Below, in pieces: positions 2,546 through 14,584 of a stretch of DNA of 64,000 nucleotides. This DNA comes from a virus, in the IMG/VR virus record IMGVR_UViG_3300044695_006284, positions 1-64,000 of that record. One strand, written 5' to 3'. A program made the translations under genes and the position numbers. Every line of letters starts with the position of its first letter. Positions within the stretch are counted from its first letter, which is position 1. Under the pieces are notes generated by a model. That model worked only from the letters and a program-made list of their open reading frames with translations. It was not told the DNA's origin and did no database searches.

Positions 2546-2565
2546 GAGTTCCGCCTTTCGTTTTG

Positions 2566-2587
2566 ATTATACCATTGACCACTGACA
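2566..2587 (-). promoter_or_regulatory. RecA-NDp/PafBC-type promoter
   Basis: TGTCAG-TGGTCAATGG-TATAAT. Confidence 0.8.
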
Positions 2588-2599
2588 TTTGTAAATGAA

Positions 2600-2630
2600 G
2601 GGGGACCTGCCTCCGAAGAGGAAGGTCCCC
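2600..2630 (-). terminator. UUCG-capped hairpin, probable terminator after the Lsr2-like gene
   Basis: GGGGACCT.CCTC-TTCG-GAGG.AGGTCCCC. Confidence 0.65.
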
Positions 2631-2641
2631 ACAGTTAGTTA

Positions 2642-2791
2642 TTACTTGACGTTCTTCTTGTCTGTGAAGACTACGCCTTCTTGTGCTGCCTTGCTGATAG
2701 CTCCTAGAGCTGCAGCTGAAAAGCGGCCACGCTTGCCCACAGAAATTCCCTGGGCCTTTAGGTATTCACGAGTTGTTGTTGGTGTTGACAT
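2642..2791 (-). CDS. 49-aa stand-alone Lsr2-like DNA-binding domain (absent from the ORF track)
   Basis: MSTPTTTREYLKAQGISVGKRGRFSAAALGAISKAAQEGVVFTDKKNVK; RE....G..V..RGR motif; GAAAGGA RBS. Confidence 0.75.
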   Translation of the reverse strand: MSTPTTTREYLKAQGISVGKRGRFSAAALGAISKAAQEGVVFTDKKNVK

Positions 2792-2837
2792 AGTTTGATC
2801 CTTTCTAGATCGAGTTGTTATATATATTATATCCGAA

Positions 2838-2895
2838 TTTCGGGGTTTTGTAAATAGGGTCGTAAAGCAATATTTTTGCCCGTGTCCCTTAGCTT
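2838..2895 (+). repeat. tripartite element copy 3 (variant TTTCGG)
   Basis: TTTCGG-N17-CGTAA-N13-CCC. Confidence 0.65.
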
Positions 2896-2939
2896 AATGA
2901 CCGTTATGTCCGAATTGTCCATAACGGCCAAAGCTATCT

Positions 2940-3122
2940 TTATTCAGTTGTTAGTTCTTCTACTTGGTATGGCTCTATCTTATCCTTTTTAGCAGCAGCC
3001 TTTACCCATTCCTTTTTTGGGCTTGATACTGCCTTATACCATGCGTCATCGCTATCATCTGCAGTTACTACAATGTAGTAATCCTGAATGATATCTCCAT
3101 AGACTTTATATTGTTTGCTCAT
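2940..3122 (-). CDS. hypothetical early protein
   Basis: ORF in an overlapping operon. Confidence 0.7.
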   Translation of the reverse strand: MSKQYKVYGDIIQDYYIVVTADDSDDAWYKAVSSPKKEWVKAAAKKDKIEPYQVEELTTE

Positions 3123-3256
3123 AGTCCTACCTGCTCTATCTTATCTTTAATTAATTTAGCAATGATGTTGTGCGCCTCGATGTTTTCTGTTTCGGACCCA
3201 CCCCATAGCAAGGCCTGGGCCTTACTAAGTTGATCGTTTAGATACTCATCACTCAT
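3119..3256 (-). CDS. 45-aa hypothetical protein (MSDEYLNDQ...)
   Basis: Fills the gap and overlaps both neighbours. Confidence 0.6.
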   Translation of the reverse strand: MSDEYLNDQLSKAQALLWGGSETENIEAHNIIAKLIKDKIEQVGL

Positions 3257-3563
3257 CTTCATCTTCGTCCTCCTCCTCTTCATCTTCAGGGTCTACGATG
3301 TAGTCCCTGTTTAACATCCATTCTAAAACTTCTTCTTGGTGCTGTTCTGCTCCCCATTCCAAGGAGAACCCCATACCAGCCTCCACGGCCTCACACAGGT
3401 GGTTCCACATGTCTTCTTGGGTTGCCTTGGCAACATAGGTGTCATCCTCTAGAATGCCATTGATTGTCGACCATGTCCACAACCAAACTAATGATAGACC
3501 TAAGTCAGTGCTGTCTAGAATCTCTAGACATTTGTTTAGTTTATCTTTATCTTCAGGCTTCAT
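3249..3563 (-). CDS. hypothetical protein with acidic tail
   Basis: ORF in operon. Confidence 0.75.
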   Translation of the reverse strand: MKPEDKDKLNKCLEILDSTDLGLSLVWLWTWSTINGILEDDTYVAKATQEDMWNHLCEAVEAGMGFSLEWGAEQHQEEVLEWMLNRDYIVDPEDEEEEDEDEDE

Positions 3564-3843
3564 TTGCTACACCAAAATCTGTTCTCTCTTGAATTGCAAA
3601 TGAGAGTTGATATGTTAATCGGTACAGGTCAACCAGCATGTCTAATCGTCCTTCACACTCTGTACGGACCATAGAGTCCATTGCTTCCTCTGATAGTTCT
3701 TCTTGCTCTAAAGCGCTTGTTAGGTCTTGCTCAGCAATAAGCATTAGATTCTTTAGTTCTCCGTGCAAGATATCAAGACCTGATACTCCTGCATTGACCA
3801 TGCGTTGCAAATGGGGCGGGAGCCCAATGTCTTCTTCATTCAT
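3553..3843 (-). CDS. hypothetical early protein
   Basis: ORF in operon. Confidence 0.75.
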   Translation of the reverse strand: MNEEDIGLPPHLQRMVNAGVSGLDILHGELKNLMLIAEQDLTSALEQEELSEEAMDSMVRTECEGRLDMLVDLYRLTYQLSFAIQERTDFGVANEA

Positions 3844-4046
3844 TAGATTACCTCATAGTTCACTAGTGTTGATTCATTTAAGTTGTTTGCCCAATCAGGC
3901 TTTCCTTCTACCCAATCATATTCAATATCGATATCTCCTCCGCCTTCGGCAGGAGCACCAATTTTTATTACCAATTCTGTCCCGTCCTCAAAAAAGATTT
4001 GTTCGACGGCGGAACGATAAGTAACTTCTCTAGATGATATATTCAT
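3843..4046 (-). CDS. hypothetical early protein
   Basis: AACGAAAGG RBS. Confidence 0.75.
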   Translation of the reverse strand: MNISSREVTYRSAVEQIFFEDGTELVIKIGAPAEGGGDIDIEYDWVEGKPDWANNLNESTLVNYEVI

Positions 4047-4234
4047 TATTCATACCTTTCGTTAGTAGAGTTCATTATATCAGTTGCCACTGACAATAAA
4101 TGCCTGGTTGCATAAATCTGTCCCTCAATATCTACTACATGTAAAGACATAGGATTTTCTTCTAGGTCTTGTTCTAAACTAATTAGATGTAATTTAATAT
4201 ACTCTAAGAATGCAGATGACTTAGTCATTATCAA
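4046..4234 (-). CDS. hypothetical early protein
   Basis: ORF; its 3' end contains the next promoter. Confidence 0.65.
   Translation of the reverse strand: MIMTKSSAFLEYIKLHLISLEQDLEENPMSLHVVDIEGQIYATRHLLSVATDIMNSTNERYE
4074..4095 (-). promoter_or_regulatory. RecA-NDp/PafBC-type promoter (inside CDS)
   Basis: TGTCAG-TGGCAACTGA-TATAAT. Confidence 0.75.
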
Positions 4235-4403
4235 AATATCCTTCTGCCCATAGCCCCTGGAGGAAGTCCTGTGCCTTTAGTAGCCCGTCCACAATTGGAT
4301 CTTCATCAACACGAACGATATCTGATTTAAGAATATAGAAAAGCTTGGCGTCATGCATAGCATTTCCCATTTCATCTATATCTGTTTTAGTATATCCTAG
4401 CAT
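4221..4403 (-). CDS. hypothetical early protein
   Basis: GGAGG RBS. Confidence 0.7.
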   Translation of the reverse strand: MLGYTKTDIDEMGNAMHDAKLFYILKSDIVRVDEDPIVDGLLKAQDFLQGLWAEGYFDND

Positions 4404-4543
4404 TCAATTGCCTCCATATATTTAAGCATAGTGTTGAGTGTTATGTGAATATAACAATCACAATCATCTGATGTATCTCTGTCATCAAAATGGATTAAGT
4501 TGTCATCATAGATATAATCAATTAGTTCTTGGCTGGTAATCAT
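4397..4543 (-). CDS. 48-aa hypothetical protein (MITSQELID...)
   Basis: Fills the gap with overlaps. Confidence 0.55.
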   Translation of the reverse strand: MITSQELIDYIYDDNLIHFDDRDTSDDCDCYIHITLNTMLKYMEAIEC

Positions 4544-4752
4544 AAGCAATACTCATCTCCTTCGATATATCCATAATATTCATTGTATGATTGCTTTAAG
4601 TTATCAGGAGCAAATTGCATAAATCTCCATTCAGCATATGCTTCCCCTTCATCTAAATTAGATTGATTCCAATCTTCAAATAATGCTTGCTCAATATCTA
4701 CTTGAATTGCTCCAAGGATATGTTCTCCTACTGTATCTGTAAATGCTTCCAT
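4540..4752 (-). CDS. hypothetical acidic protein
   Basis: GAAAGGCGG RBS. Confidence 0.7.
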   Translation of the reverse strand: MEAFTDTVGEHILGAIQVDIEQALFEDWNQSNLDEGEAYAEWRFMQFAPDNLKQSYNEYYGYIEGDEYCL

Positions 4753-5486
4753 TATGCTTCCGCCTTTCTATATTCGGGTACTTTAGTGTCTAAGTATATC
4801 TTATGGGTCTGACAAATTGCTACAGCCTCTAGGTCAGCATTGCCTAGCCAGTTGCAGTTGCCACAGATTTCACCGCAGTCATTGTCGCAGTATTCCATTT
4901 GGTCGGTTGCATCACAATCACGGCACATGTTATCGTATTCTGATTCTGATATAACTTCTCCACGGAGGAATTCCATTTCCCCACCCCAACCTGTTTCTTC
5001 TTCGTATGATAAAGTAAATAGTAGATTAGGATACTGTGCAGATAGTTTAGAGATAGCGCCAAGAGGTCGTGACCATGCAGTGTTAAAGTTGTAATGAACT
5101 ACATAGTTCTCGCCATTTTCTGCTTCTTCAATAGTTGTATCAGGATACTTATTATCCTCGGCTACAGCAACATCCCACTTGGTTCCCCACTCACGCACAT
5201 TAAAGTTGTACCAGTCATTGGTTTCAAACTTCATTGCCTGAGAAAAGTCGGTGGAACGAGGAGGCTGTCCATGATATTCCTCATCAGTAATACCAGCATC
5301 TCTATAGTTATAGATATTATGAAAAGCAAAGATAGGATTAACATACTTAGTCTGCTTGACATCATATGATAAATCACCTAATGCAGTAATAGAATAAACA
5401 AATGGCTTATTCATCTGCTTGATTAAAGATTTAACTTGCTCAGGATTACCTTCAATAGTTAATCCATTAAATACCCAATTTGGCAT
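4752..5486 (-). CDS. YubB/DUF1281-like ferredoxin-like domain protein with C-terminal Cys cluster
   Basis: Start reassigned to MPNWVFN; WY.FN...WGTKW and FNTAWS.P motifs. Confidence 0.75.
   Translation of the reverse strand: MPNWVFNGLTIEGNPEQVKSLIKQMNKPFVYSITALGDLSYDVKQTKYVNPIFAFHNIYNYRDAGITDEEYHGQPPRSTDFSQAMKFETNDWYNFNVREWGTKWDVAVAEDNKYPDTTIEEAENGENYVVHYNFNTAWSRPLGAISKLSAQYPNLLFTLSYEEETGWGGEMEFLRGEVISESEYDNMCRDCDATDQMEYCDNDCGEICGNCNWLGNADLEAVAICQTHKIYLDTKVPEYRKAEA
4793..4814 (-). promoter_or_regulatory. RecA-NDp/PafBC-type promoter (inside CDS)
   Basis: TGTCAG-ACCCATAAGA-TATACT. Confidence 0.7.
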
Positions 5487-5513
5487 TTTATATCCTTTCG
5501 TTGATATGTTCCA

Positions 5514-5535
5514 ATTATACAATGGACCACTGACA
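5514..5535 (-). promoter_or_regulatory. RecA-NDp/PafBC-type promoter
   Basis: TGTCAG-TGGTCCATTG-TATAAT. Confidence 0.8.
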
Positions 5536-5601
5536 AATGGAATAGAATTGGCATGTGATACATGCCACATGATTCAGCTTTGTGGTCAACATCACAGCAA
5601 A

Positions 5602-5661
5602 TTCCAGGGAATATAATTGACAGTCGTAAAGACAATATGCTACCCTCATGTCTTTGAGGGC
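5602..5661 (+). repeat. tripartite element copy 4
   Basis: TTCCAG-N17-CGTAA-N13-CCCTC...GAGGGC. Confidence 0.8.
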
Positions 5662-5690
5662 AAAGAAAAACCCCCAGCTTAACTGGGGGT
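5662..5690 (-). terminator. Rho-independent terminator
   Basis: CCCCCAG-TTAAG-CTGGGGG-TTTTTCTTT. Confidence 0.8.
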
Positions 5691-5809
5691 CTTGAATAAT
5701 GGCTGCCTGGATTTCCAACGAAAGAAATAAACCCGCTTTACTTAGCGCCTGGCCCGAAGACTGATAGACGCACCATTATATTTCCTATTAAAACCAGGAC
5801 CTTAGTCCT
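5662..5809 (-). ncRNA. candidate ~145-nt structured sRNA with anti-leader loop
   Basis: Extended -10 TGGTATAAT (5816-5824); several stems; intrinsic terminator at 5662-5690. Confidence 0.5.
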
Positions 5810-5816
5810 AGTCTAA

Positions 5817-6182
5817 TTATACCATAACTAGTCGACTGTATTTGTCTACGAATGATGCTAAGGATGAACTAAATACAACTGTTTTTAGGTCTTCCTCGTA
5901 TAGCGTAAATGTTTGGTTTGTCCAATCAATTACAGGGACCTTGTGTTCGTTGTCTCCCAATTGGTTGACATAGATACCCCACGATAATGTTTGGTTCCAG
6001 TCTTCTCCAATTAGATGTGATATAGCAATGCGTGTTGCATATGACTCATCCTGCCAACGGGACTCCGCTGCCTGCACTGCATTTGCTAGTTTGGCTAGCA
6101 TGTCATACCCAGCCCAGTGTCCATATAGAAATACTACATTTTCCTTGGAATCTCTGAATCCAAAGTTTGCTCTGTCGCCCAT
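5817..6182 (-). CDS. hypothetical phage protein (MGDRAN...LYGHWAG)
   Basis: ORF with GGCGG RBS. Confidence 0.8.
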   Translation of the reverse strand: MGDRANFGFRDSKENVVFLYGHWAGYDMLAKLANAVQAAESRWQDESYATRIAISHLIGEDWNQTLSWGIYVNQLGDNEHKVPVIDWTNQTFTLYEEDLKTVVFSSSLASFVDKYSRLVMV

Positions 6183-6184
6183 TT

Positions 6185-6385
6185 TTATTCCGCCGTTTCT
6201 AAAGTAGGTATTGCTAGTTCTATCTTGTCTAATTCTATCACTTCATAGGCTACCTTGTCTAGGCCTGCCTTGTTTTTATTGTAGTGGTGACCGCAAAAAG
6301 CTAACTCACCATCTACTAGTTTAACTAGATACATTGCATCTGCTGATCCACATGCATCACATGGAATGAACTCTCTGTCTCTCAT
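6185..6385 (-). CDS. small Zn-binding protein (CDAC...FCGHH)
   Basis: Cys/His motif. Confidence 0.75.
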   Translation of the reverse strand: MRDREFIPCDACGSADAMYLVKLVDGELAFCGHHYNKNKAGLDKVAYEVIELDKIELAIPTLETAE

Positions 6386-6528
6386 AGAGCACCGCCCTCA
6401 ATCATCTCAGAAAGACGGTCAAGAATCCAAGAATCAATATCGTTGATATCAATTTCTGATAACTTCTCCATTATTTCTTCACGGGCAAACTTATACCCGT
6501 CATCCCAGCCATCCTTATAGTCTGACAT
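6382..6528 (-). CDS. 48-aa hypothetical protein (MSDYKDGWDDGY...)
   Basis: AGGAG RBS; ATGA overlap with next gene. Confidence 0.65.
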   Translation of the reverse strand: MSDYKDGWDDGYKFAREEIMEKLSEIDINDIDSWILDRLSEMIEGGAL

Positions 6529-6537
6529 AATCTCTCC

Positions 6538-6741
6538 TTAATAACCTGTGGTTTCGTAGTCTGATACATAAGATTCAGTTAAGTTATACTTATCTCTAAG
6601 TCTACTTACTTTCTCAATACTACCAGTTCCAATGTTGAATGTCAATGCAGACATTGCTTGTGGGTCAAGTCCTGTTATTTGTGCATCCCAATAGGCCATC
6701 TCCATGGATAGCCTATCAGGAGCGGTAAGTTCAAAGTACAT
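6538..6741 (-). CDS. hypothetical early protein
   Basis: ORF. Confidence 0.7.
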   Translation of the reverse strand: MYFELTAPDRLSMEMAYWDAQITGLDPQAMSALTFNIGTGSIEKVSRLRDKYNLTESYVSDYETTGY

Positions 6742-7358
6742 TAGCCCTCGATTCTATCTACAGATGATGATAGCCAACTAATACCGTCTGAGTCATAAGA
6801 AACAGTGTCAAAATCAATATCATGAATTAGATTGTGTGCAGACTCTTCATCACGAGCATTAACTGTAATTGAATATAGAACTGTTACTTCTAGTTCAAAC
6901 TCATTTGTTAGTTCAAATCCACAGATGCCAGCAATTTCTTCTGCTTGAAATTCTGTAAGAGATTCGTCATCAAGGCCTTCGAGTGTGAATACCTTCATGT
7001 CATCACGCAATTTGCTTAGAGTTCCTGCAGTTGCATAATCACGCTGAGTTATACGCTGGATGTGCTCTTCTAACTGTGTAATGCGGGCTTTGTTATCTAC
7101 TAACTGTGACTCAAGAAATTCCCGTGTCAAGTAGTGATTATCTGTTGTTGTTTCCATTTTATCCTCTTTCGTTGTTGTTGGTGTAATTGTAGCATGCTCC
7201 ACTGACAATAATGTGGTCTTGCGTCCGCATGGGCATGTGAGTTCTGTCACACCTGAAGGAAAGCCAAATCCATCAGATGATGTTAGTTCTATTAATGAAT
7301 CGCATTCATCTGGGTCACAGACAAATGTATACTTGCTTGATACTAGTTCGTTGGTCAT
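6741..7358 (-). CDS. Zn-ribbon plus coiled-coil protein with an internal in-frame start at 7157
   Basis: Leaderless ATG7358; internal promoter and RBS precede ATG7157. Confidence 0.7.
   Translation of the reverse strand: MTNELVSSKYTFVCDPDECDSLIELTSSDGFGFPSGVTELTCPCGRKTTLLSVEHATITPTTTKEDKMETTTDNHYLTREFLESQLVDNKARITQLEEHIQRITQRDYATAGTLSKLRDDMKVFTLEGLDDESLTEFQAEEIAGICGFELTNEFELEVTVLYSITVNARDEESAHNLIHDIDFDTVSYDSDGISWLSSSVDRIEG
7186..7207 (-). promoter_or_regulatory. RecA-NDp/PafBC-type promoter (inside CDS)
   Basis: TGTCAG-TGGAGCATGC-TACAAT. Confidence 0.75.
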
Positions 7359-7365
7359 AAAGAGA

Positions 7366-7387
7366 ATTGTACCAGGTCCCACTGACA
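7366..7387 (-). promoter_or_regulatory. RecA-NDp/PafBC-type promoter
   Basis: TGTCAG-TGGGACCTGG-TACAAT. Confidence 0.8.
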
Positions 7388-7398
7388 TTATCAAGGAT

Positions 7399-7456
7399 TT
7401 CCAGGGGATATTTATGTGAGTCGTAACACACTTTTTGCCCCCTTAGCTTTGAGGGC
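7399..7456 (+). repeat. tripartite element copy 5
   Basis: TTCCAG-N17-CGTAA-N13-CCCTTAGCTTTGAGGGC. Confidence 0.8.
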
Positions 7457-7459
7457 GCT

Positions 7460-7536
7460 TGGCGATCCATAACGGACTTGAACCGTCGACCTCTACCGTG
7501 ACAGGGTAGCGCTCTAACCAACTGAGCTAATGGACC
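7460..7536 (-). tRNA. tRNA-Asp(GTC)
   Basis: Cloverleaf; CTACC-CT GTC AC-GGTAG anticodon arm; GTTCAAG T-loop; encoded CCA. Confidence 0.95.
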
Positions 7537-7549
7537 TGGAAAAAATTGT

Positions 7550-7576
7550 GAGCAGTTTTTATTCATGCTCAGGAAT
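7550..7576 (-). ncRNA. 27-nt H-type pseudoknot copy A
   Basis: ATTC-CTGAGCAT-GAAT-AAAAAC-TGCTC. Confidence 0.6.
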
Positions 7577-7584
7577 TTATTTAT

Positions 7585-8592
7585 TTAGAACGCAGAAATT
7601 AATTTCTTAATTTTATTTTTTTCTGCGGTTAGAATTGGGTCAAACCCTGATGCACCCGCCATGAGTGTTTCAGAATTTCCACGACCTGAACGATAGTAAT
7701 CAAGGCGTTCAGTAAGTGCATTGAATGCACCCCACTTTGTTCCCTTGATGTTAGCGTTAGTTGGTGAATTGTGATACAACTCGTCAAGCAACACGACTTT
7801 GTTTTCCCACTTAGTCAATGCAACTTTAGCAGCATCCTTATCAGGCTTAGGATAAATTGTCTGAATTAACTTTGAGAATTCAGCATCAGTGATTGATTGA
7901 GAATAAAGAGCCTGAGCCTCTTTCTCGAATTCATCAAAGTACCCAAGAGCAAGCCCAAGAGTTTCACGAGCAACTTGGATGCGACCTTCAACAGATTGCG
8001 TGTGGCGAATCTTGAAAGATTGCTTAGCATTCTTCATTGCAAGGTTAAGAGTGTTTTGGCATACAACACGAACAGGAGTAACAGCAGCCTGAACAGCAAC
8101 TGACCCGTCGTGAGATGTCCAAACAATTAGATACAACTTAGTTGCATCATTTGCGCCTTGTGGGTCAAGCACCATTGTGCGAGGAATATCCACTGTACCG
8201 AATACAACCTTACCGCTACGAAGTGAGCCAGCAGATTCCCAACGGCAATCTGCATTCGCATCGTGAATTGCATCTGCGAATGCAAATAGTTCCTCATTCT
8301 GCACAGGCTTGTAACGCTTTCCAACAGTTGCAAGAACATCAGTTCCATTGTTGAATGGGTTGTCACGAATAACTAATTGAGCATTAGATACATCATTCCA
8401 TGTATCTGAAATATGGTCAGTTAGTGGAGACAAGCGAACATTCCAGTTGGAAAGTTTTGCCTCATCTAACATCATTTGAGTTGTAACATCTTCATCTTGT
8501 GTAAAGATGCGATTTGCAAGGTTGTGCCATGCAGGTGCGCCACGAAGTGCGAATGCAACTTCGCCATTTTCCATTTCTAGATTATGAGCCAT
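7585..8592 (-). CDS. DUF932 (phage/plasmid LGT_TIGR03299-like) protein
   Basis: MAH...AWH.L, Y.PVQN, SHDGS, TPVRVVCQNTL, GT.WGAFNA.TE..D motifs. Confidence 0.9.
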   Translation of the reverse strand: MAHNLEMENGEVAFALRGAPAWHNLANRIFTQDEDVTTQMMLDEAKLSNWNVRLSPLTDHISDTWNDVSNAQLVIRDNPFNNGTDVLATVGKRYKPVQNEELFAFADAIHDANADCRWESAGSLRSGKVVFGTVDIPRTMVLDPQGANDATKLYLIVWTSHDGSVAVQAAVTPVRVVCQNTLNLAMKNAKQSFKIRHTQSVEGRIQVARETLGLALGYFDEFEKEAQALYSQSITDAEFSKLIQTIYPKPDKDAAKVALTKWENKVVLLDELYHNSPTNANIKGTKWGAFNALTERLDYYRSGRGNSETLMAGASGFDPILTAEKNKIKKLISAF

Positions 8593-8623
8593 TTTTTACC
8601 TTTCGTTTGTTTGATTAGTTGTA

Positions 8624-8645
8624 AGTATAACAGACCCCACTGACA
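8624..8645 (-). promoter_or_regulatory. RecA-NDp/PafBC-type promoter
   Basis: TGTCAG-TGGGGTCTGT-TATACT. Confidence 0.8.
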
Positions 8646-8702
8646 TTGTCTAGGATTAATTACAATATGTCCGAATTGATCCATGTGATTAATCTCACAA
8701 AA

Positions 8703-8760
8703 TTCCAGGGTTATCCACAAGTGGTCGTAACCCTGTGGATAACCCCTTAGCTTTGCGGGC
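8703..8760 (+). repeat. tripartite element copy 6 with two DnaA boxes
   Basis: TTATCCACA at 8711, TGTGGATAA at 8734. Confidence 0.85.
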
Positions 8761-8789
8761 CAGCTGCATATGCAGCTGGTGTTAGATCT

Positions 8790-9044
8790 TTACAGACCTA
8801 ACTCATCCCTAGTTAATTGGTTTTTGCGATTGAAGTTAATAACTTCGGACGGGAGGTAAAGAGCAGTTGTCTTAGTCTTCTTCAATGTATCATAGACATA
8901 AGCACGAACATCCCCTAAAAAGTTTCCTCTATTAGAGAATGCTAACTCAGTTAAATAATCTTTATCTACACCTTGTTCTGAATAGATTGTTACATCATTT
9001 GCTTTGTTTGCATCATAGATTTCTACTCTGAAACGATTTTTCAT
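8790..9044 (-). CDS. hypothetical early protein
   Basis: AAAGG RBS. Confidence 0.75.
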   Translation of the reverse strand: MKNRFRVEIYDANKANDVTIYSEQGVDKDYLTELAFSNRGNFLGDVRAYVYDTLKKTKTTALYLPSEVINFNRKNQLTRDELGL

Positions 9045-9079
9045 TTTGTTGCCTTTGTTAGTAGTTGTCCCAAAAGGGA

Positions 9080-9106
9080 GAGCAGTTTGGCGACATACTC
9101 AGGTCG
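9080..9106 (-). ncRNA. 27-nt H-type pseudoknot copy B
   Basis: CGAC-CTGAGTAT-GTCG-CCAAAC-TGCTC; stem covaries with copy A. Confidence 0.6.
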
Positions 9107-9115
9107 TTGGATTAT

Positions 9116-9538
9116 TTACAGATAACGAGCAATAGCATTGTAAGTGCTTGTGCTTACTGTTTCCTCATCTGTCATCTTTAGAATACGAATTGCGTTTTCC
9201 AATTCCTCTTTCATCTCATTGTATGAGTGGCGGTGGAGAACTTCGTAGTCCTTCTCAGGCTCTTTAGGAAAGTCTGACTCATTAACTGTTAAATCGAAAT
9301 CAACATTGAGTGTCTTATTCCATGAGCGATAGTTTGTGCGGAAGTTTTCTGCCTTAGCAAAATTAGCCATAGCGAACTTTCCTACTTCTTTGCGCCACTT
9401 CTCCATAGCCTTTTCATGCTTTGCTTCGTTGGCTTCTTGTGATGCGTAATCGGCATTTAACTTTGTCAAGCGAGTTTCTAGTGCCTTGATTACCTTTGGT
9501 GTTGCGATTTTTACGCTAATTGCTTTCTGTCGTGCCAT
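9116..9538 (-). CDS. hypothetical coiled-coil early protein
   Basis: Strong RBS and upstream promoter. Confidence 0.85.
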   Translation of the reverse strand: MARQKAISVKIATPKVIKALETRLTKLNADYASQEANEAKHEKAMEKWRKEVGKFAMANFAKAENFRTNYRSWNKTLNVDFDLTVNESDFPKEPEKDYEVLHRHSYNEMKEELENAIRILKMTDEETVSTSTYNAIARYL

Positions 9539-9577
9539 TTGTTTCCTTCTTTCGTTGTGAGTTGGGTTGATGAAGTA

Positions 9578-9599
9578 ATTATAGCAGGGGGGTCTGACA
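9578..9599 (-). promoter_or_regulatory. RecA-NDp/PafBC-type promoter
   Basis: TGTCAG-ACCCCCCTGC-TATAAT. Confidence 0.8.
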
Positions 9600-9624
9600 T
9601 TTCTGCGACCCCCCTCCCATTAAA

Positions 9625-9807
9625 TTAAACGCCTAGTAGTGTTTGAGCGGATACGGAAGTCCAACGAGTTTCCTTGTTGGGCATTTCCAATAGCACACGC
9701 ACCGAGCCAGATGTTTGTGGGTGGATTTCTTTAATCACACCTGTTTTCTTTGACTTGAGGGTAGTGAATAAATCGCCTACCTGATACAACTTGTCGTTGA
9801 TTGTCAT
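9625..9807 (-). CDS. small SH3/KOW-like protein
   Basis: YQVGD....K..TGVIKEI pattern. Confidence 0.65.
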   Translation of the reverse strand: MTINDKLYQVGDLFTTLKSKKTGVIKEIHPQTSGSVRVLLEMPNKETRWTSVSAQTLLGV

Positions 9808-9837
9808 TTATTGCCTCTTTTCTTTGTTAGGTTGGTA

Positions 9838-9859
9838 ATTATAGCATTGGGGTCTGACA
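9838..9859 (-). promoter_or_regulatory. RecA-NDp/PafBC-type promoter
   Basis: TGTCAG-ACCCCAATGC-TATAAT. Confidence 0.8.
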
Positions 9860-9908
9860 TTAGTCTAGCCCTGTCTCAGTATTTGAGAAAGTTATTGTGT
9901 GACCTTAG

Positions 9909-10169
9909 TCACTCAGGTAGCCAAGCGTGTAAGTGGTGAGCCTCGATGATCGCCCACACTGGCGCACATGTCTCACCTTTGTAAGTAATCCCATCAGGCA
10001 TTTCGATAGTTTCATCCCACATGTCATCATGAGCAAAATCTATTGCTTCGATACATACTGGCACCATAGAAAGTGGAACGGGTGGGTAATGATTACCCTG
10101 TAAGTGATAGCCTAGTGCTACTTCTAAATCTAATTCTTCAGATAAATCTAATGCTGTATTGTATCCCAT
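9909..10169 (-). CDS. hypothetical protein (HL.GNHYPPVP motif)
   Basis: ORF with AAGGTGG RBS. Confidence 0.8.
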   Translation of the reverse strand: MGYNTALDLSEELDLEVALGYHLQGNHYPPVPLSMVPVCIEAIDFAHDDMWDETIEMPDGITYKGETCAPVWAIIEAHHLHAWLPE

Positions 10170-10372
10170 TATTCTGCCACCTTTAGTATTGCGTAAGAGC
10201 CATTAGCATTTATTTCATCAAGAATTGGTTGTAGGCGTGGTGCTACTAAATCTTTTAGCATAGACTCTAGCATAAAGATACGAGTATCCTCATCAAGTGC
10301 CATAACCTGTTGAGTTACTGGATGATTGTCTGCAAACTCTGTTACAAACTTTAGATTGTGTTCTACTATCAT
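10169..10372 (-). CDS. hypothetical early protein
   Basis: AACGAAAGG RBS. Confidence 0.75.
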   Translation of the reverse strand: MIVEHNLKFVTEFADNHPVTQQVMALDEDTRIFMLESMLKDLVAPRLQPILDEINANGSYAILKVAE

Positions 10373-10403
10373 TTTTATTGCCTTTCGTTGTTGGTATAAG
10401 AGT

Positions 10404-10425
10404 ATTATACACTAGGGCACTGACA
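10404..10425 (-). promoter_or_regulatory. RecA-NDp/PafBC-type promoter
   Basis: TGTCAG-TGCCCTAGTG-TATAAT. Confidence 0.8.
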
Positions 10426-10480
10426 AATTGTGCAACACGCCCAAGCTTTATCTTATTTATTTTGTGATTAATCTCACAAA

Positions 10481-10539
10481 TTCCAGGGGGTTGTGGATAA
10501 GTCCCGTAAGCCTGTGGATAACCCCGCAGTATTGCGGGC
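10481..10539 (+). repeat. tripartite element copy 7 (N18) with two DnaA boxes
   Basis: TGTGGATAA at 10492 and 10513; CCCGCA-GTAT-TGCGGG hairpin. Confidence 0.85.
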
Positions 10540-10554
10540 CTGCATAGCTATGCA

Positions 10555-10686
10555 TTACTCTGCATATTTATTTTTATGTTTGATCTTTCGAAAATATTTT
10601 TTCTTATTACGAACAGGTTGCGCCGCATTACTGCGGCGCAATTCCTGAATTCGTTTTACTTTATCTCGAAGTGAATTTTGGGACAT
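10555..10686 (-). CDS. 43-aa highly basic protein
   Basis: MSQNSLRDKVKRIQELRRSNAAQPVRNKKKYFRKIKHKNKYAE. Confidence 0.55.
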   Translation of the reverse strand: MSQNSLRDKVKRIQELRRSNAAQPVRNKKKYFRKIKHKNKYAE

Positions 10687-10852
10687 GATACCCACTCGCT
10701 TCGTGAAATCGTTTTACATCAAATCGGTCATTATCTTTTGCGAACATCTCCGCAAAGTCATTAACCATTTTAGAAAATAACGCTGGGTGCGCTTTATCGC
10801 TTGCGAACTTTAGAATTTCTGCAACCGCGACATAATCTTTTCGTGTCATCAT
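10661..10852 (-). CDS. hypothetical protein (MTRKDY...DN.RFD..RF)
   Basis: ORF. Confidence 0.75.
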   Translation of the reverse strand: MMTRKDYVAVAEILKFASDKAHPALFSKMVNDFAEMFAKDNDRFDVKRFHEASGYHVPKFTSR

Positions 10853-11052
10853 TTTACTGCCACCATTCCACTACGATAGAAAACTTTTGTATAGCATTTG
10901 CCTGTTGGCGTGTAAATATTTACAGTTGAGTATTCGTTAGCAAAACCCCAATCGGTGAATAAGAAAAAGTTTTCCCACGCACCAAATTCGCTTTCGTATT
11001 CTGCTGACCAATGAGGAGCGTGTCCGTCATAAGCACAAGTTAATTTATACAT
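10849..11052 (-). CDS. hypothetical early protein
   Basis: ORF. Confidence 0.7.
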   Translation of the reverse strand: MYKLTCAYDGHAPHWSAEYESEFGAWENFFLFTDWGFANEYSTVNIYTPTGKCYTKVFYRSGMVAVK

Positions 11053-11195
11053 TAGTCATTTTCTCCGTTCCAAAATAGTGAGCCGTCATCTACGCAATCG
11101 CAAGGTTCGCAATCAAAATCATTATCATCACCAAAAAAGATTACTCCGTGTCCGTGGCAATCTTGGCAATCTATTGTTAATACTGAGTTAATCAT
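11052..11195 (-). CDS. 47-aa Cys-rich protein (CQDCHGHG...CEPCDC)
   Basis: TAATG overlaps on both sides. Confidence 0.6.
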   Translation of the reverse strand: MINSVLTIDCQDCHGHGVIFFGDDNDFDCEPCDCVDDGSLFWNGEND

Positions 11196-11359
11196 TAGTG
11201 TTGTTCCTCGCAATCTTTGTCATAGTCAAATCCGCAAAAGTAGCAACCCATAAATTCTAGGTGTTCGATACAGTAATACTTAAATTGACTTTCATCACAA
11301 CAAAAATGTTGCTCGTCTGCGATTTCATAGAAATCGGTTTTGTCGATTATGTTTAACAT
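11195..11359 (-). CDS. 54-aa Cys-rich protein
   Basis: AACGAAAGGA RBS. Confidence 0.65.
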   Translation of the reverse strand: MLNIIDKTDFYEIADEQHFCCDESQFKYYCIEHLEFMGCYFCGFDYDKDCEEQH

Positions 11360-11387
11360 AGTTTTCCTTTCGTTTGTTTATTTAGTT

Positions 11388-11409
11388 ATTGTATCAGTTA
11401 GCACTGACA
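11388..11409 (-). promoter_or_regulatory. RecA-NDp/PafBC-type promoter
   Basis: TGTCAG-TGCTAACTGA-TACAAT. Confidence 0.8.
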
Positions 11410-11480
11410 AATTTTGTGAGGGTTCTTACTTACGACATTGGGCGAGGACTCCCTCTAAACTGCCCCTGTTTCGATTTTAT

Positions 11481-11693
11481 TTAATCGGAAGTTTTTACGG
11501 CTAAATAGCGATAAGTATCTTTTAGATTTAGCGGTGCAGAATAAATTGGGCGTACCTGCACTTTGTAAGTATCTGCATTTGCATACCAGACACTATCATT
11601 TTTTTCTGCTGAAATAATTTCTCCAGTAAGAGAATTTGAGCGATACATTTTTCCTACAAGTAGGCTTTCGATAGTATAGACATTTGCTGACAT
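11481..11693 (-). CDS. hypothetical early protein (MSANVY...)
   Basis: Start reassigned using the CGAAAGGCGG RBS. Confidence 0.75.
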   Translation of the reverse strand: MSANVYTIESLLVGKMYRSNSLTGEIISAEKNDSVWYANADTYKVQVRPIYSAPLNLKDTYRYLAVKTSD

Positions 11694-11725
11694 TTGAGTC
11701 CGCCTTTCGTTTGTTGATAGTAGCA

Positions 11726-11747
11726 ATTATAGCGGATAGCACTGACA
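11726..11747 (-). promoter_or_regulatory. RecA-NDp/PafBC-type promoter
   Basis: TGTCAG-TGCTATCCGC-TATAAT. Confidence 0.8.
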
Positions 11748-11833
11748 AAAGATAATTACTAGCCAGTAATTCCAAATAATGAGACGCTCAAGCCGTGTGA
11801 TAAAAATCACAAAATCTCGGGCGTGTCGGAAAA

Positions 11834-11891
11834 TTCCAGGGGTTGTGGATAACCCCCGTAACCCTGTGGATAACCCCGCTCTTTTGCGGGC
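11834..11891 (+). repeat. tripartite element copy 8 with two DnaA boxes
   Basis: TGTGGATAA at 11844 and 11865; CCCGC-TCTTTT-GCGGG hairpin. Confidence 0.85.
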
Positions 11892-11924
11892 GCATCAGCT
11901 TTTGTCAAGCCGACACGCCTCTGC

Positions 11925-12724
11925 TTATTCGAAATCCTTAAAAATTTCTTCAAGCTTTAAGATTTGCTCATCTGTAAGATGATCAATTTCAATTGCTTTT
12001 TCAAATCCAAAAAAATCCATTATTCATTTTCCATTTCTGCTAAATAATCTTCATGTTCAATTAAGCCGACTGAAAAAGCGATTGGGTCGCAACATTCCAA
12101 AATTTCGGCGGGAGTAAAAGTAGAGTAACCAATTTTTACAGTAGGGTAACAGTCATTTAGTAAATCAATAAAGCTTTCCTTGATTTCTAAATCTTTTTCA
12201 AATTGTGTTTTCATTCGCTTAACTCCAAATCTCTTATGTCGGCAACATAAACATTATTTTTATCTATTCCGTATTTTAATTGAAATTGAAATGTATCAAT
12301 AGCCTCATCATAGGATTCAGCCTCGACATTTATAAAAGCATTAAACTCATAAACTGGCATGATTACCAACACTCCTCACAAGTAAATTTAGTAAAGTCTG
12401 CATCTTTTGCAAAAATCTCTAAATAGTTATTCGCACAAATTGTGCATGATAGCAAATAAGTTTTTGCCTTTTGATACATGTATGGATTAGAGTTAGATAA
12501 TTCTCTATTCTCTAAAACCTCTGATGAAATTAAAATACTCATTTAGTTAAACTCCAATCGGTGTAAAATGGTAAGCGGTCATAGTCATCATAGAAATAAA
12601 CTCTATCTATGTTCTGCTCGCATGTTTCGCAGAAAGTGTATTCGACATCTACGCCCATGCCATAGGTAGTAGATACGCTCTCCATGTGTGGAGTGTGTGT
12701 ATGTGTATTTGTTAGTGTAGTCAT
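11925..12724 (-). CDS. operon of five small hypothetical genes (12724-12539, 12542-12363, 12360-12211, 12214-12020, 12020-11925)
   Basis: Abutting or overlapping ORFs; several have CxxC motifs. Confidence 0.6.
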
Positions 12725-12756
12725 TTGAGACCACCTTTCTTTTTCGTTATGGTAGT

Positions 12757-12778
12757 ATTTTACCACGGGGGTCTGACA
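12757..12778 (-). promoter_or_regulatory. RecA-NDp/PafBC-type promoter
   Basis: TGTCAG-ACCCCCGTGG-TAAAAT. Confidence 0.8.
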
Positions 12779-12847
12779 TTTATCTACCTACTAGCCAGTA
12801 ATTCCAAGATGTGAGACGCTCAGCCTATGTGATAATTATCACATAAA

Positions 12848-12905
12848 TTCTGGGGTTTTCCACAGATGCCCGTAACCCTGTGGATAACCCCGCTCTTTTG
12901 CGGGC
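12848..12905 (+). repeat. tripartite element copy 9 (TTCTGG) with DnaA boxes
   Basis: TTTTCCACA at 12856 (one mismatch), TGTGGATAA at 12879. Confidence 0.8.
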
Positions 12906-13058
12906 CAGCTCGACATTGTCAAGCCGACACGCCGTTAGGCTAGTGTGACTCTTGCCACATCTCTCGCATCTCTGCCTTAAAGTCATGCCATACGATCCTC
13001 GCCATGTATAGGGCGGGTAGGGCAAGGGATAACTGCACTAGTGTAGTAAGTAGTCTAT

Positions 13059-13524
13059 TCATGCGGTCACCTTGATGTCCATTACATTAGCGGTAAACTT
13101 TTTAACCTTGCCTAATTCGCTATCGTTGAGCGATTGTATTACATGGTCAATAGCCTTAGCCTCATGCGCTACATTGTCAATAGAGATTAGTTTAGAGCCT
13201 TGCCAAATTGAGTAAGTGATAGTCATTATTAGTTCTCCCATGTTAGTTGGTATAGTTTTGCTAGTTCTTCATCATCTGAGTCATCAAATTCATCTAGTGG
13301 AGGTTGTTCCTCATCTACCTCATCGAGGTATGCGTATGCGTCTGCGACATCTGATTGGATAGTGTCCCACTTAGACACGCTGTTAGTTTCGTATGAGTAT
13401 GCGTATGACATTATTTATTCATCTCCTCTGCGATAGCCTTAGACTTAGTTAGTGCCTCTAGGGCTACTGATAGGGAGGCAAGGCGTTGAGCCTCTACCAT
13501 TTGCTTGTATTCATCTAGTGTCAT
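13059..13524 (-). CDS. three small hypothetical genes (13524-13411, 13411-13229, 13226-13059)
   Basis: Coupled ORFs, each with an RBS. Confidence 0.65.
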
Positions 13525-13555
13525 TATTCTGACCTTTCGTTGTTGTTATGTTGTA

Positions 13556-13577
13556 AGTGTAGCATGGGGGTCTGACA
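13556..13577 (-). promoter_or_regulatory. RecA-NDp/PafBC-type promoter
   Basis: TGTCAG-ACCCCCATGC-TACACT. Confidence 0.8.
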
Positions 13578-13616
13578 AATTGGGGAGGTTAGCCTAGTGT
13601 GTCGGTGTGAGGTGTG

Positions 13617-13787
13617 TCACCTTCCTCGCTTAACTCGAATAGCCTCGGCTTGCGCTAACTGCTCAGGTGTAGCGTTGCGGAAAGCCTGTACGCTCTCCCT
13701 TATCCAAGGTGACTTAGCCATAGCCTTTTCGTGAGCGATAGCGTTGCGCTCTTGTTGTTCTTTTCTAATTCGTTCTAGTGTATTCAT
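13617..13787 (-). CDS. first gene of the leftward block, hypothetical
   Basis: Start reassigned to MNTLER using the AACGAAAGG RBS. Confidence 0.7.
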   Translation of the reverse strand: MNTLERIRKEQQERNAIAHEKAMAKSPWIRESVQAFRNATPEQLAQAEAIRVKRGR

Positions 13788-13822
13788 TAGATGATTACCT
13801 TTCGTTTTGTTGTTATACCTTA

Positions 13823-13844
13823 AGCATAGCATGGGGGACTGACA
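13823..13844 (-). promoter_or_regulatory. RecA-NDp/PafBC-type promoter
   Basis: TGTCAG-TCCCCCATGC-TATGCT. Confidence 0.8.
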
Positions 13845-14505
13845 AATTGAGGCACATCTCGGGCGTGTCGCAAAAAAATCTTTGTGATGCTAATCACACT
13901 CACGCTCAAGCCCGAAAGAATAATGGGCGCACTATCCAAAATGTCCGTTTTGTCCAGGGTGTGTATCATACATGTAAAAAATATATTAACATTTTCTTAA
14001 ATCTGAAAAAGCAGTCGACTAGAATATAAAGCGGTGGTACAATAGAGCTATGACATGTTCCTTTTGTGATAAGTATGCATACACAAGTATGATCAATAAC
14101 CTTGGCGTAAAATATTATCTTTGCGAAACACATATAAAACAAAACAGCACAATCTCTTGACTTTGATAAAAACTAAATGCTACACTTAGTTTGCTTTGTG
14201 GGGGGCTTACCCTGAAACTCAATATGTACCAGATAACATCTGTGGATATATGTTCCAGGAATTGCTTTCTCTATCTTTCCAAAAAGAAAAAATTTGGGGG
14301 GTAGGGGGGCTTTCCTAAAATCTAATATCCCCAGATAAAATCTATAAAACAAGATAAAAAACATAAGACAAATAGGTGAATAGAGACTTTACATATTCAC
14401 TTAAAAAAACGGGGGTAGAACAGTGAAACTTCTTTGCCAAATAGCCATAATAACTGTCATTACTTTTATCCTTGGTATACTCATACAGATAATAGGCTAA
14501 TATAA

Positions 14506-14580
14506 GGGCCTATAGCTTAATCTGGTTAAAGCAATTGTCTTATATGCAATCGACTTTGGGTTCAAATCCCAATAGGCCTA
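14506..14580 (+). tRNA. tRNA-Ile(TAT)
   Basis: GGGCCTA/TAGGCCT acceptor stem; ATTGT-CT TAT AT-GCAAT anticodon arm; GGTTCAAATCC; no encoded CCA. Confidence 0.85.
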
Positions 14581-14584
14581 CTTG

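What the first reader, a model, noticed from the sequence alone, without database searches (positions are those of the whole stretch)
5554..13898. CRP boxes helically phased upstream of the PafBC-type promoters: a possible two-input gate
Seen: 11 TGTGA-N6-TCACA sites, 5 of them perfect. Offsets from the nearest TGTCAG element are 19, 28, 29, 38, 39, 39, 39, 49 and 50 bp, so they fall in ~10-bp steps on one helix face. The sites at 5581 (46 bp) and 12944 are exceptions. Established: this palindrome is bound by CRP-family factors (E. coli CRP, mycobacterial Crp, corynebacterial GlxR), and class I activation depends on helical phase. Inference: early expression integrates host cAMP/metabolic state with the DNA-damage signal, so the phage commits only in a suitable cell.
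Basis: partly seen in the sequence, partly recalled or inferred. Interest (0 to 1): 0.82.

Follow-up and report, generated by a model that had tools for sequence, protein, structure and literature searches.

The report
Phased CRP-type boxes on phage promoters
An uncultured lake-water phage of actinobacteria places a 16-base palindrome, identical to the binding site of cAMP-receptor-type regulators, whole DNA turns upstream of most of its unusual PafBC-type promoters, which suggests, but does not prove, that a dimeric regulator (probably a host one) helps switch these genes on.

Summary
The window has 12 TGTGA-N6-TCACA sites with at most one mismatch (6 perfect), against 2.7 expected, and all lie in 5554-13898. 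Eleven of them lie upstream of 10 of the 15 minus-strand promoters of the type TGTCAG-N10-TAnnnT. The gaps are 18, 27, 28, 28, 37, 38, 38, 38, 48 and 49 bp, plus a second site at 45 bp.

The 10-bp stepping is conserved in hundreds of related IMG/VR phage contigs. The best period is 10.1 bp (Rayleigh p about 1e-50 over 214 sites, and about 7e-8 using only spacers that share no sequence). About 12% of sites are off phase.

The palindrome arms are conserved while the inner six bases vary, and the hairpins are weak. This is a protein site, not an RNA structure.

No CRP, cNMP-binding or other recognisable regulator gene was found in the phage or in a complete relative, apart from whiB and a 46-residue helix-turn-helix ORF. 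A host CRP/GlxR-type factor is therefore the leading candidate. The host is unknown, and I could not reach any actinobacterial genome to test this.

The "two-input gate" idea remains speculation. The scan has reported the same feature before on related phage genomes.

The parts
13883..13898 (.). Perfect palindrome TGTGATTAGCATCACA, 38 bp upstream of promoter 13823-13845 (centre about -74.5)
13823..13845 (-). PafBC-type promoter TTGTCAGTCCCCCATGCTATGCT
13606..13621 (.). One-mismatch palindrome, gap 28 to promoter 13556-13578 (centre about -64.5). It overlaps the stop codon of the upstream gene
13556..13578 (-). PafBC-type promoter TTGTCAGACCCCCATGCTACACT
12944..12959 (.). One-mismatch palindrome at a gene end, 165 bp from the next promoter. 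Orphan site, not phased
12828..12843 (.). Perfect palindrome TGTGATAATTATCACA, gap 49 to promoter 12757-12779 (centre about -85.5)
12757..12779 (-). PafBC-type promoter ATGTCAGACCCCCGTGGTAAAAT
11796..11811 (.). Perfect palindrome TGTGATTTTTATCACA, gap 48 to promoter 11726-11748. Its spacer is homologous to that of the 12828 unit
11726..11748 (-). PafBC-type promoter TTGTCAGTGCTATCCGCTATAAT
10463..10478 (.). Perfect palindrome TGTGAGATTAATCACA, gap 37 to promoter 10404-10426
10404..10426 (-). PafBC-type promoter TTGTCAGTGCCCTAGTGTATAAT
9898..9913 (.). One-mismatch palindrome, gap 38 to promoter 9838-9860. It overlaps the end of the upstream gene
9838..9860 (-). PafBC-type promoter ATGTCAGACCCCAATGCTATAAT
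8684..8699 (.). Perfect palindrome TGTGAGATTAATCACA, gap 38 to promoter 8624-8646 (DUF932 gene). Among 31 orthologous variants the arms are conserved and the N6 varies
8624..8646 (-). PafBC-type promoter ATGTCAGTGGGGTCTGTTATACT
7415..7430 (.). One-mismatch palindrome, gap 27 to promoter 7366-7388. It lies just downstream of tRNA-Asp
7366..7388 (-). PafBC-type promoter ATGTCAGTGGGACCTGGTACAAT
7236..7251 (.). Perfect palindrome TGTGACAGAACTCACA, gap 28 to promoter 7186-7208. It lies inside a small Cys-rich reading frame
7186..7208 (-). PafBC-type promoter TTGTCAGTGGAGCATGCTACAAT
5554..5596 (.). Tandem pair of one-mismatch palindromes (5554-5569, gap 18, in phase; 5581-5596, gap 45, off phase), 27 bp centre to centre. 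The pair is conserved in relatives
5514..5536 (-). PafBC-type promoter TTGTCAGTGGTCCATTGTATAAT
2566..11410 (-). Five promoters of the same type with no palindrome within 65 bp: 11388-11410, 9578-9600, 4793-4815, 4074-4096, 2566-2588

Best explanation
The palindromes are binding sites for a dimeric, sequence-specific DNA-binding protein. This protein acts on the adjacent PafBC-type promoters from one face of the helix, in the manner of a class I activator. With TGTCAG at -28 to -23, the site centres fall near -54.5, -64.5, -74.5, -84.5 and -95.5. The most likely binder is a host CRP/GlxR-family regulator. If so, the phage couples a large part of its block of small, probably early genes to a host global regulator, in addition to whatever reads the -26 element.

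Shown: the sites exist, they are enriched and confined to the promoter block, the 10-bp phasing is conserved, and the arms are conserved while the N6 varies.

Inferred: that the sites activate rather than repress, that the binder is host-encoded and of the CRP family, and that cAMP is involved.
For: Enrichment: 12 sites found against 2.7 expected, all within the 8.3-kb promoter block.

Phasing in the window: ten of the 11 promoter-proximal sites have gaps of 18, 27-28, 37-38 or 48-49 bp.

Phasing in relatives: in 404 promoter contexts less than 70% identical, taken from related IMG/VR contigs, 214 sites give a best period of 10.1 bp, R = 0.73, p about 1e-50. 173 of 196 single-site promoters have a gap mod 10 of 7-9. 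Using only spacers that share at most one 6-mer (about 24 spacers): R = 0.85, 93% in phase, p about 7e-8. A relative with only 70% DUF932 identity (L215) has gaps of 27, 27, 48, 48 and 58.

Footprint: among orthologues the TGTGA and TCACA arms are fixed while the N6 and the 3' flank vary.

Not an RNA structure: hairpin energies are only -3 to -8 kcal/mol and no U-tract follows.

Site logo: TGTGA-t-n-T-A-n-a-TCACA. This matches the CRP consensus (PMC10187061) and the consensus motif, described as resembling E. coli CRP's, found at the 191 ChIP sites of M. tuberculosis CRP (PMC4117774).

No phage-encoded candidate: no HTH_Crp_2 or HTH_3 match in the 98-kb record, no cNMP-binding match in it or in five 92-100% complete relatives, and only a 13-bit HTH_Crp_2 match to a 46-aa ORF in four of those relatives. 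No DNA-binding family appears among 50 early-region ORFs in Pfam (E up to 0.05) or with a named function in PHROGs. None appears among 20 proteins from the part this record lacks, apart from WhiB.

Geometry: the centre-to-centre distances to the -26 element (29, 39, 49, 59, 70 bp) equal those of E. coli class I CRP sites to the -35 element (29, 39, 50, 60 bp). This is my arithmetic plus textbook positions.
Against: The host is unknown, and I could not examine any actinobacterial genome for a Crp orthologue or for this motif.

Many early ORFs have no detectable family, so a phage-encoded binder is not excluded.

About 12% of sites in the family are off phase: gaps of 33-34 and 40-42, and the 45-46 partner of tandem pairs. 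One common cassette has a gap of 33, which is half a turn off.

Half of the sites are perfect palindromes, which is unusual for natural CRP regulons (PMC10187061).

The absolute positions are about 7 bp closer to the start site than in E. coli class I promoters.

Promoters with and without a box differ only slightly in core quality (4.80 against 5.04 matches to TATAAT, p = 0.03).

The cultured relative Streptomyces phage BillNye has neither motif.
Confidence: 0.5

Rival explanations
1. The boxes are operators for a phage-encoded (or virion-delivered) dimeric DNA-binding protein of an unrecognised family. This protein would time the block, for example by delayed-early activation or later shut-off. 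The match to the CRP consensus would then be a coincidence or mimicry.
For: Dozens of small early ORFs have no family match. The high proportion of perfect palindromes resembles phage operators. Five box-less promoters could express such a factor first. Both motifs are specific to this phage lineage and are absent from the related Streptomyces phage BillNye.
Against: No helix-turn-helix, CRP, cNMP-binding or other regulator domain was found in the record or in complete relatives, apart from WhiB and a 46-aa HTH ORF that sits beside RuvC-like and small-terminase-like genes. The half-site is letter for letter the CRP one, including the T6/A11 preference. Sites well upstream of the core promoter in helical phase are an activator arrangement, not a simple repressor one.
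Confidence: 0.3
2. The boxes have no regulatory role of their own. They are conserved pieces of mobile promoter cassettes (like the PeSL cassettes of T4-type phages) that spread by recombination, and the spacing is inherited rather than selected.
For: The intergenic units are modular and repeated, with shared hairpins, TTATCCACA boxes, CCCTGGAA and a common leader. Units 11748 and 12779 share their spacer sequence. PeSL cassettes behave this way (PMC2839356).
Against: Spacers that share no sequence still obey the 10-bp rule. There are four to five discrete spacing classes one helical turn apart. Within orthologues the arms are conserved while neighbouring bases drift.
Confidence: 0.08
3. The dyads act as RNA or DNA hairpins, for example as terminators or attenuators of read-through from the upstream gene, or as processing sites.
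For: They lie between an upstream gene end and the next promoter, and each can form a 5-9 bp stem.
Against: The stems are weak (-3 to -8 kcal/mol) and no U-run follows. The arm sequence itself is fixed as TGTGA/TCACA, with no compensatory changes, across hundreds of contexts. The terminator scan finds one only at 5549-5567, from a different pairing. A hairpin role would not explain phasing to the promoter.
Confidence: 0.03

Closest known systems
Class I CRP (CAP)-dependent promoters of E. coli (lac type; sites centred at -61.5, -71.5, -82.5, -92.5)
   Same: The same 16-bp dyad TGTGA-N6-TCACA is used. The sites lie upstream of the core promoter at integral helical turns (period 10.1 bp here). 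The centre-to-centre distance to the upstream promoter element is identical (29, 39, 49-50, 59-60 bp).
   Different: The core promoter has no -35 element. It has a TGTCAG element at -28 to -23, so the absolute positions are about 7 bp closer to the start site. The system is in a phage of a probable actinobacterial host. Neither binding nor activation has been shown.
Actinobacterial Crp/GlxR regulons (M. tuberculosis CRP-Mt Rv3676, C. glutamicum GlxR)
   Same: The consensus palindrome is the same, and the central T-A preference resembles the GlxR consensus TGTGAnnTAnnTCACA (recalled from memory). Strong CRP-Mt sites occur at -62.5, -69.5 and -96.5 from start sites (PMC4117774).
   Different: Those are chromosomal regulons with mostly imperfect sites. 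Here there are 10 or more strong sites in 8 kb of phage DNA, and the host and its Crp are unidentified.
PafBC-dependent (RecA-NDp) promoters read by sigma adaptation (PMC8635444)
   Same: The partner promoters match tGTCgg-N10-tAnnnT with identical spacing, and they lack a -35 element.
   Different: The element is TGTCAG rather than TGTCGG. No upstream CRP-type site was found for PafBC promoters in the papers I searched and read. The promoters are in a phage.
PeSL promoter-stem-loop cassettes of T4-type phages RB49/phi1 (PMC2839356)
   Same: Both are repeated composite regulatory units in front of small ORFans in a plastic early region.
   Different: PeSLs have canonical sigma-70 promoters and G/C-rich terminator stems. 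No phased activator-type dyad is described in the PeSL passages I read.

Membership tests
CRP/FNR-family (CRP, CRP-Mt, GlxR) binding site | 16-bp dyad TGTGA-N6-TCACA | tested here: met
   12 sites with at most 1 mismatch, 6 of them perfect. The consensus is given in PMC10187061.
CRP/FNR-family (CRP, CRP-Mt, GlxR) binding site | Secondary preferences inside the spacer (T at position 6, A at position 11; central TA in GlxR sites) | tested here: met
   Over 214 sites: T 44% at position 6, A 59% at position 11, T 56% at position 8, A 57% at position 9. The GlxR central TA is recalled from memory.
CRP/FNR-family (CRP, CRP-Mt, GlxR) binding site | A CRP-family protein is present in the cell (host or phage) and binds the site | not testable with these tools
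   The phage and its complete relatives encode none. The host is unknown. The only bacterial genome sample I could reach proved not to be actinobacterial.
CRP/FNR-family (CRP, CRP-Mt, GlxR) binding site | Binding or activity depends on cAMP | not testable with these tools
   This needs biochemistry.
Class I CRP-dependent promoter | Site upstream of the core promoter at integral helical turns | tested here: met
   Period 10.1 bp, R = 0.73. 88% of single-site promoters are in phase. About 12% are exceptions.
Class I CRP-dependent promoter | Canonical -35/-10 core, with site centres at -61.5, -71.5, -82.5 or -92.5 | tested here: not met
   There is no -35 element, and canonical promoters are not enriched (35 found, 39 expected). 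Site centres are at about -54.5, -64.5, -74.5, -84.5 and -95.5.
Class I CRP-dependent promoter | Activation through contact with the RNA polymerase alpha C-terminal domain | not testable with these tools
   This needs in vitro transcription or genetics.
PafBC-dependent promoter (partner element) | tGTCgg-N10-tAnnnT with no -35 element | tested here: met
   There are 15 copies with invariant N10 spacing, reading TGTCAG in place of TGTCGG.
PafBC-dependent promoter (partner element) | Read by host PafBC with the SigA holoenzyme | not testable with these tools
   The host is unknown. The phage was not searched directly for WYL-domain genes, and none was among the 25 of 51 matched families shown by the 89-ORF Pfam screen or in the early-ORF screen.
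PeSL-like mobile regulatory cassette | Repeated promoter plus stem-loop unit flanking ORFans, with exchange between units | tested here: inconclusive
   The repeated composite units exist, and a different cassette sits at an orthologous position in G002. Recombination was not tested.

The most novel reading that the evidence does not exclude
Two host global regulators are co-opted together on more than ten promoters of an abundant lake phage lineage. A CRP-type dimer bound one to five helical turns upstream would cooperate with PafBC-adapted RNA polymerase. The block of small genes would then fire only when both the single-stranded-DNA alarm and the cAMP or metabolic signal are present. This would be the first case of class I-type activation on sigma-adaptation promoters, and a phage that reads host physiology through two borrowed switches.
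Probability: 0.2. Interest if true: 0.8.

Novelty: new variant of a known kind. Interest (0 to 1): 0.55.

Why it matters
If a host CRP-type regulator really binds these boxes, a very abundant and widespread freshwater phage lineage ties expression of a block of about 40 small genes to a host global metabolic regulator. It would do so on promoters that already look like the host's DNA-damage (PafBC) promoters.

That would give a concrete, testable model of how phages of uncultured, streamlined lake actinobacteria sense host state. It would also show whether class I-type activation can work on promoters read by sigma adaptation.

The strict 10-bp quantisation across unrelated spacers gives ready-made natural spacing variants for such tests.

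Tried and rejected
1. Host test. I tried to reach actinobacterial genomes through a MAG titled 'Acidimicrobiia bacterium' (L217/G006) and its GTDB phylum, order and family samples. WhiB was absent from 23 of the 24 genomes I tested from that sample. The sample is therefore not actinobacterial, and I draw no conclusion from those calls.

2. Host handle through phage WhiB homologues. All the hits I looked up were metagenome or phage contigs, and none was a named genome.

3. DUF932 search in genome contigs. It found only phage contigs mis-binned into MAGs labelled cyanobacterium, Polynucleobacter and others, so it gives no host signal.

4. Exact look-up of two G335 proteins. Neither was on record.

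5. Phage-encoded CRP or HTH. Searches with HTH_Crp_2, cNMP_binding and HTH_3, plus Pfam and PHROGs screens, were negative. The exceptions were a 13-bit hit in a 46-aa ORF, and WhiB.

6. Inheritance from cultured relatives. Streptomyces phage BillNye (DnaE 58% identical) has no PafBC-type promoter and no excess of boxes.

7. Do boxes compensate for weak core promoters? There is only a marginal difference.

8. Hairpin or terminator reading. Rejected.

9. Megablast of the region against cultured phages found no match.


Full report
What the DNA is. The window is the first 64 kb of a 98,133-bp IMG/VR virus record that CheckV rates 78% complete, with about 38% G+C. Its DnaE is 58% identical to that of Streptomyces phages of the Stanwilliamsviridae, and a tail protein resembles those of Arthrobacter and Gordonia phages. 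Four near-complete relatives (110-117 kb) carry a whiB gene in the roughly 20.7 kb that this record lacks. The host is therefore probably a low-G+C actinobacterium from fresh water, but it is not identified.

The observation. There are 12 matches to TGTGA-N6-TCACA with at most one mismatch, 6 of them perfect. The expectation is 2.7 +/- 1.8, and all 12 lie in 5554-13898.

That stretch is a block of small minus-strand genes. The 98-kb record has 16 minus-strand matches to (A/T)TGTCAG-N10-TAnnnT between 2566 and 13845 and only one match elsewhere. I discount the match at 11671-11693, which sits at a gene start, and count 15 promoters. The element fits the published PafBC consensus tGTCgg(N10)tA(N3)T, whose -26 element lies at -23 to -28 (PMC8635444). 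Canonical -35/-10 promoters are not enriched here.

Ten of the 15 promoters have a palindrome upstream. The gaps from palindrome end to the T of TGTCAG are 18 (+45), 28, 27, 38, 38, 37, 48, 49, 28 and 38 bp.

Is the phasing real? For the window alone, R = 0.84 at a period of 10-10.2 bp, p about 4e-4.

The feature is shared by a very large phage family. More than 250 IMG/VR contigs encode the neighbouring DUF932 protein, and the 80 best matches kept are at least 91% identical. At least 119 contigs carry the composite pattern of palindrome, 17-47 bp, then promoter.

From these contigs I took 404 promoter contexts less than 70% identical to each other. 205 of them have a box within 65 bp. The gaps pile up at 18, 27-29, 37-39, 47-49 and 59-60 bp. 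The best period is 10.1 bp, R = 0.73, p about 1e-50. 173 of 196 single-site promoters are in phase.

Related sequences are not independent, so I repeated the test using only spacers that share at most one 6-mer. About 24 spacers remain, with R = 0.85, 93% in phase and p about 7e-8. A relative with only 70% DUF932 identity shows gaps of 27, 27, 48, 48 and 58. The complete relative G002 shows 38, 28, 49, 48, 33, 38, 38, 27, 28 and 18+46.

The rule is not absolute. About 12% of sites are off phase, including a common cassette with a gap of 33 and the distal sites of tandem pairs.

What kind of element is it? Among 31 orthologous variants upstream of the DUF932 gene, the TGTGA and TCACA arms are invariant while the inner six bases and the 3' flank change. 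The arm sequence itself, not its pairing, is conserved across hundreds of contexts. The possible hairpins are weak (-3 to -8 kcal/mol) and lack U-tracts. This is the signature of a dimeric protein reading two half-sites, not of an RNA structure. Quantised spacing across unrelated spacers argues for contact with something at the promoter, on one face of the helix.

With TGTCAG at -28 to -23, the site centres fall near -54.5, -64.5, -74.5, -84.5 and -95.5. Measured to the centre of the -26 element, the distances are 29, 39, 49, 59 and 70 bp. E. coli class I CRP sites lie 29, 39, 50 and 60 bp from the centre of the -35 element (arithmetic on textbook positions). I treat this as a suggestive analogy only.

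Who binds? The logo, TGTGA-t-n-T-A-n-a-TCACA, is the CRP consensus (PMC10187061). M. tuberculosis CRP occupies 191 sites whose consensus motif resembles that of E. coli CRP, several of them at -62.5 to -96.5 (PMC4117774).

The phage encodes no CRP-type, cNMP-binding or XRE-type protein, and five 92-100% complete relatives encode no cNMP-binding domain. The only hits are a 13-bit match in a 46-aa HTH ORF next to RuvC-like and small-terminase-like genes, and WhiB. Screens of 89 and 50 ORFs, and of 20 proteins from the missing segment, found no DNA-binding regulator among the matches shown (one search displayed only 25 of 51 matched families).

A host CRP/GlxR-type factor is therefore the best candidate. 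However, many early ORFs are orphans, so a novel phage factor remains a serious rival.

I could not test the key prediction, that the host lineage has such a protein and uses this motif. The only bacterial sample I reached turned out not to be actinobacterial. The cultured relative BillNye has neither motif, so the arrangement arose within the lake lineage.

Verdict. The closest known arrangement is class I CRP activation. Membership fails on the core promoter type and on the absolute positions, so I class this as a new variant of a known kind.

The scan has already reported the same feature on related phage genomes, with the same reading. My tests are independent of those notes and agree with them.

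Noticed in passing
window 8711-12887: There are seven perfect DnaA-box-like TTATCCACA copies. Most occur as GGGTTATCCACA pairs (direct or inverted) just upstream of the CRP-type palindromes, followed by CCCTGGAA.
   Followed up: partly
window 13578 and 13845 promoters; 404 family contexts: GACAC (often as CGACACGCC) sits 25-26 bp upstream of the T of TGTCAG in 42 of 404 contexts, and GTGTC sits 14-15 bp upstream in 43. These are further fixed-position boxes inside the spacers. GACAC is the WhiA core motif from memory.
   Followed up: partly
window 8647-8683: The spacer block CAATTCGGACATATTGTA, between the palindrome and the DUF932 promoter, is as conserved among 31 orthologous variants as the palindrome arms. 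It contains CGGACA, which is TGTCCG in reverse complement.
   Followed up: no
window 2554-13805, minus strand: A shared leader ACGAAAGG occurs 9 times just before start codons of the block's genes.
   Followed up: no
window 7460-7536: tRNA-Asp(GTC) is embedded in the promoter block directly upstream of palindrome 7415-7430. A second tRNA, Ile(TAT), lies at 14506-14581.
   Followed up: no
G002 43678-44031; G003 9610-9693 (L210 1447-1587): Complete relatives carry whiB (117 aa) and a 46-aa HTH ORF. whiB lies in the roughly 20.7 kb that this record lacks. The HTH ORF was not found in this record and its position relative to that gap was not mapped. These are the only recognisable transcription-related genes of the phage family.
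   Followed up: partly
window 7140-7394: Promoter 7186-7208 and its perfect palindrome 7236-7251 lie inside a small Cys-rich reading frame (CPCG motif) that starts about 7355. This is either an internal promoter or a mis-called ORF.
   Followed up: no
L217 / G006: A MAG titled 'Acidimicrobiia bacterium' belongs to a GTDB phylum sample in which 23 of the 24 genomes tested lack WhiB. The title or the binning is therefore doubtful.
   Followed up: partly
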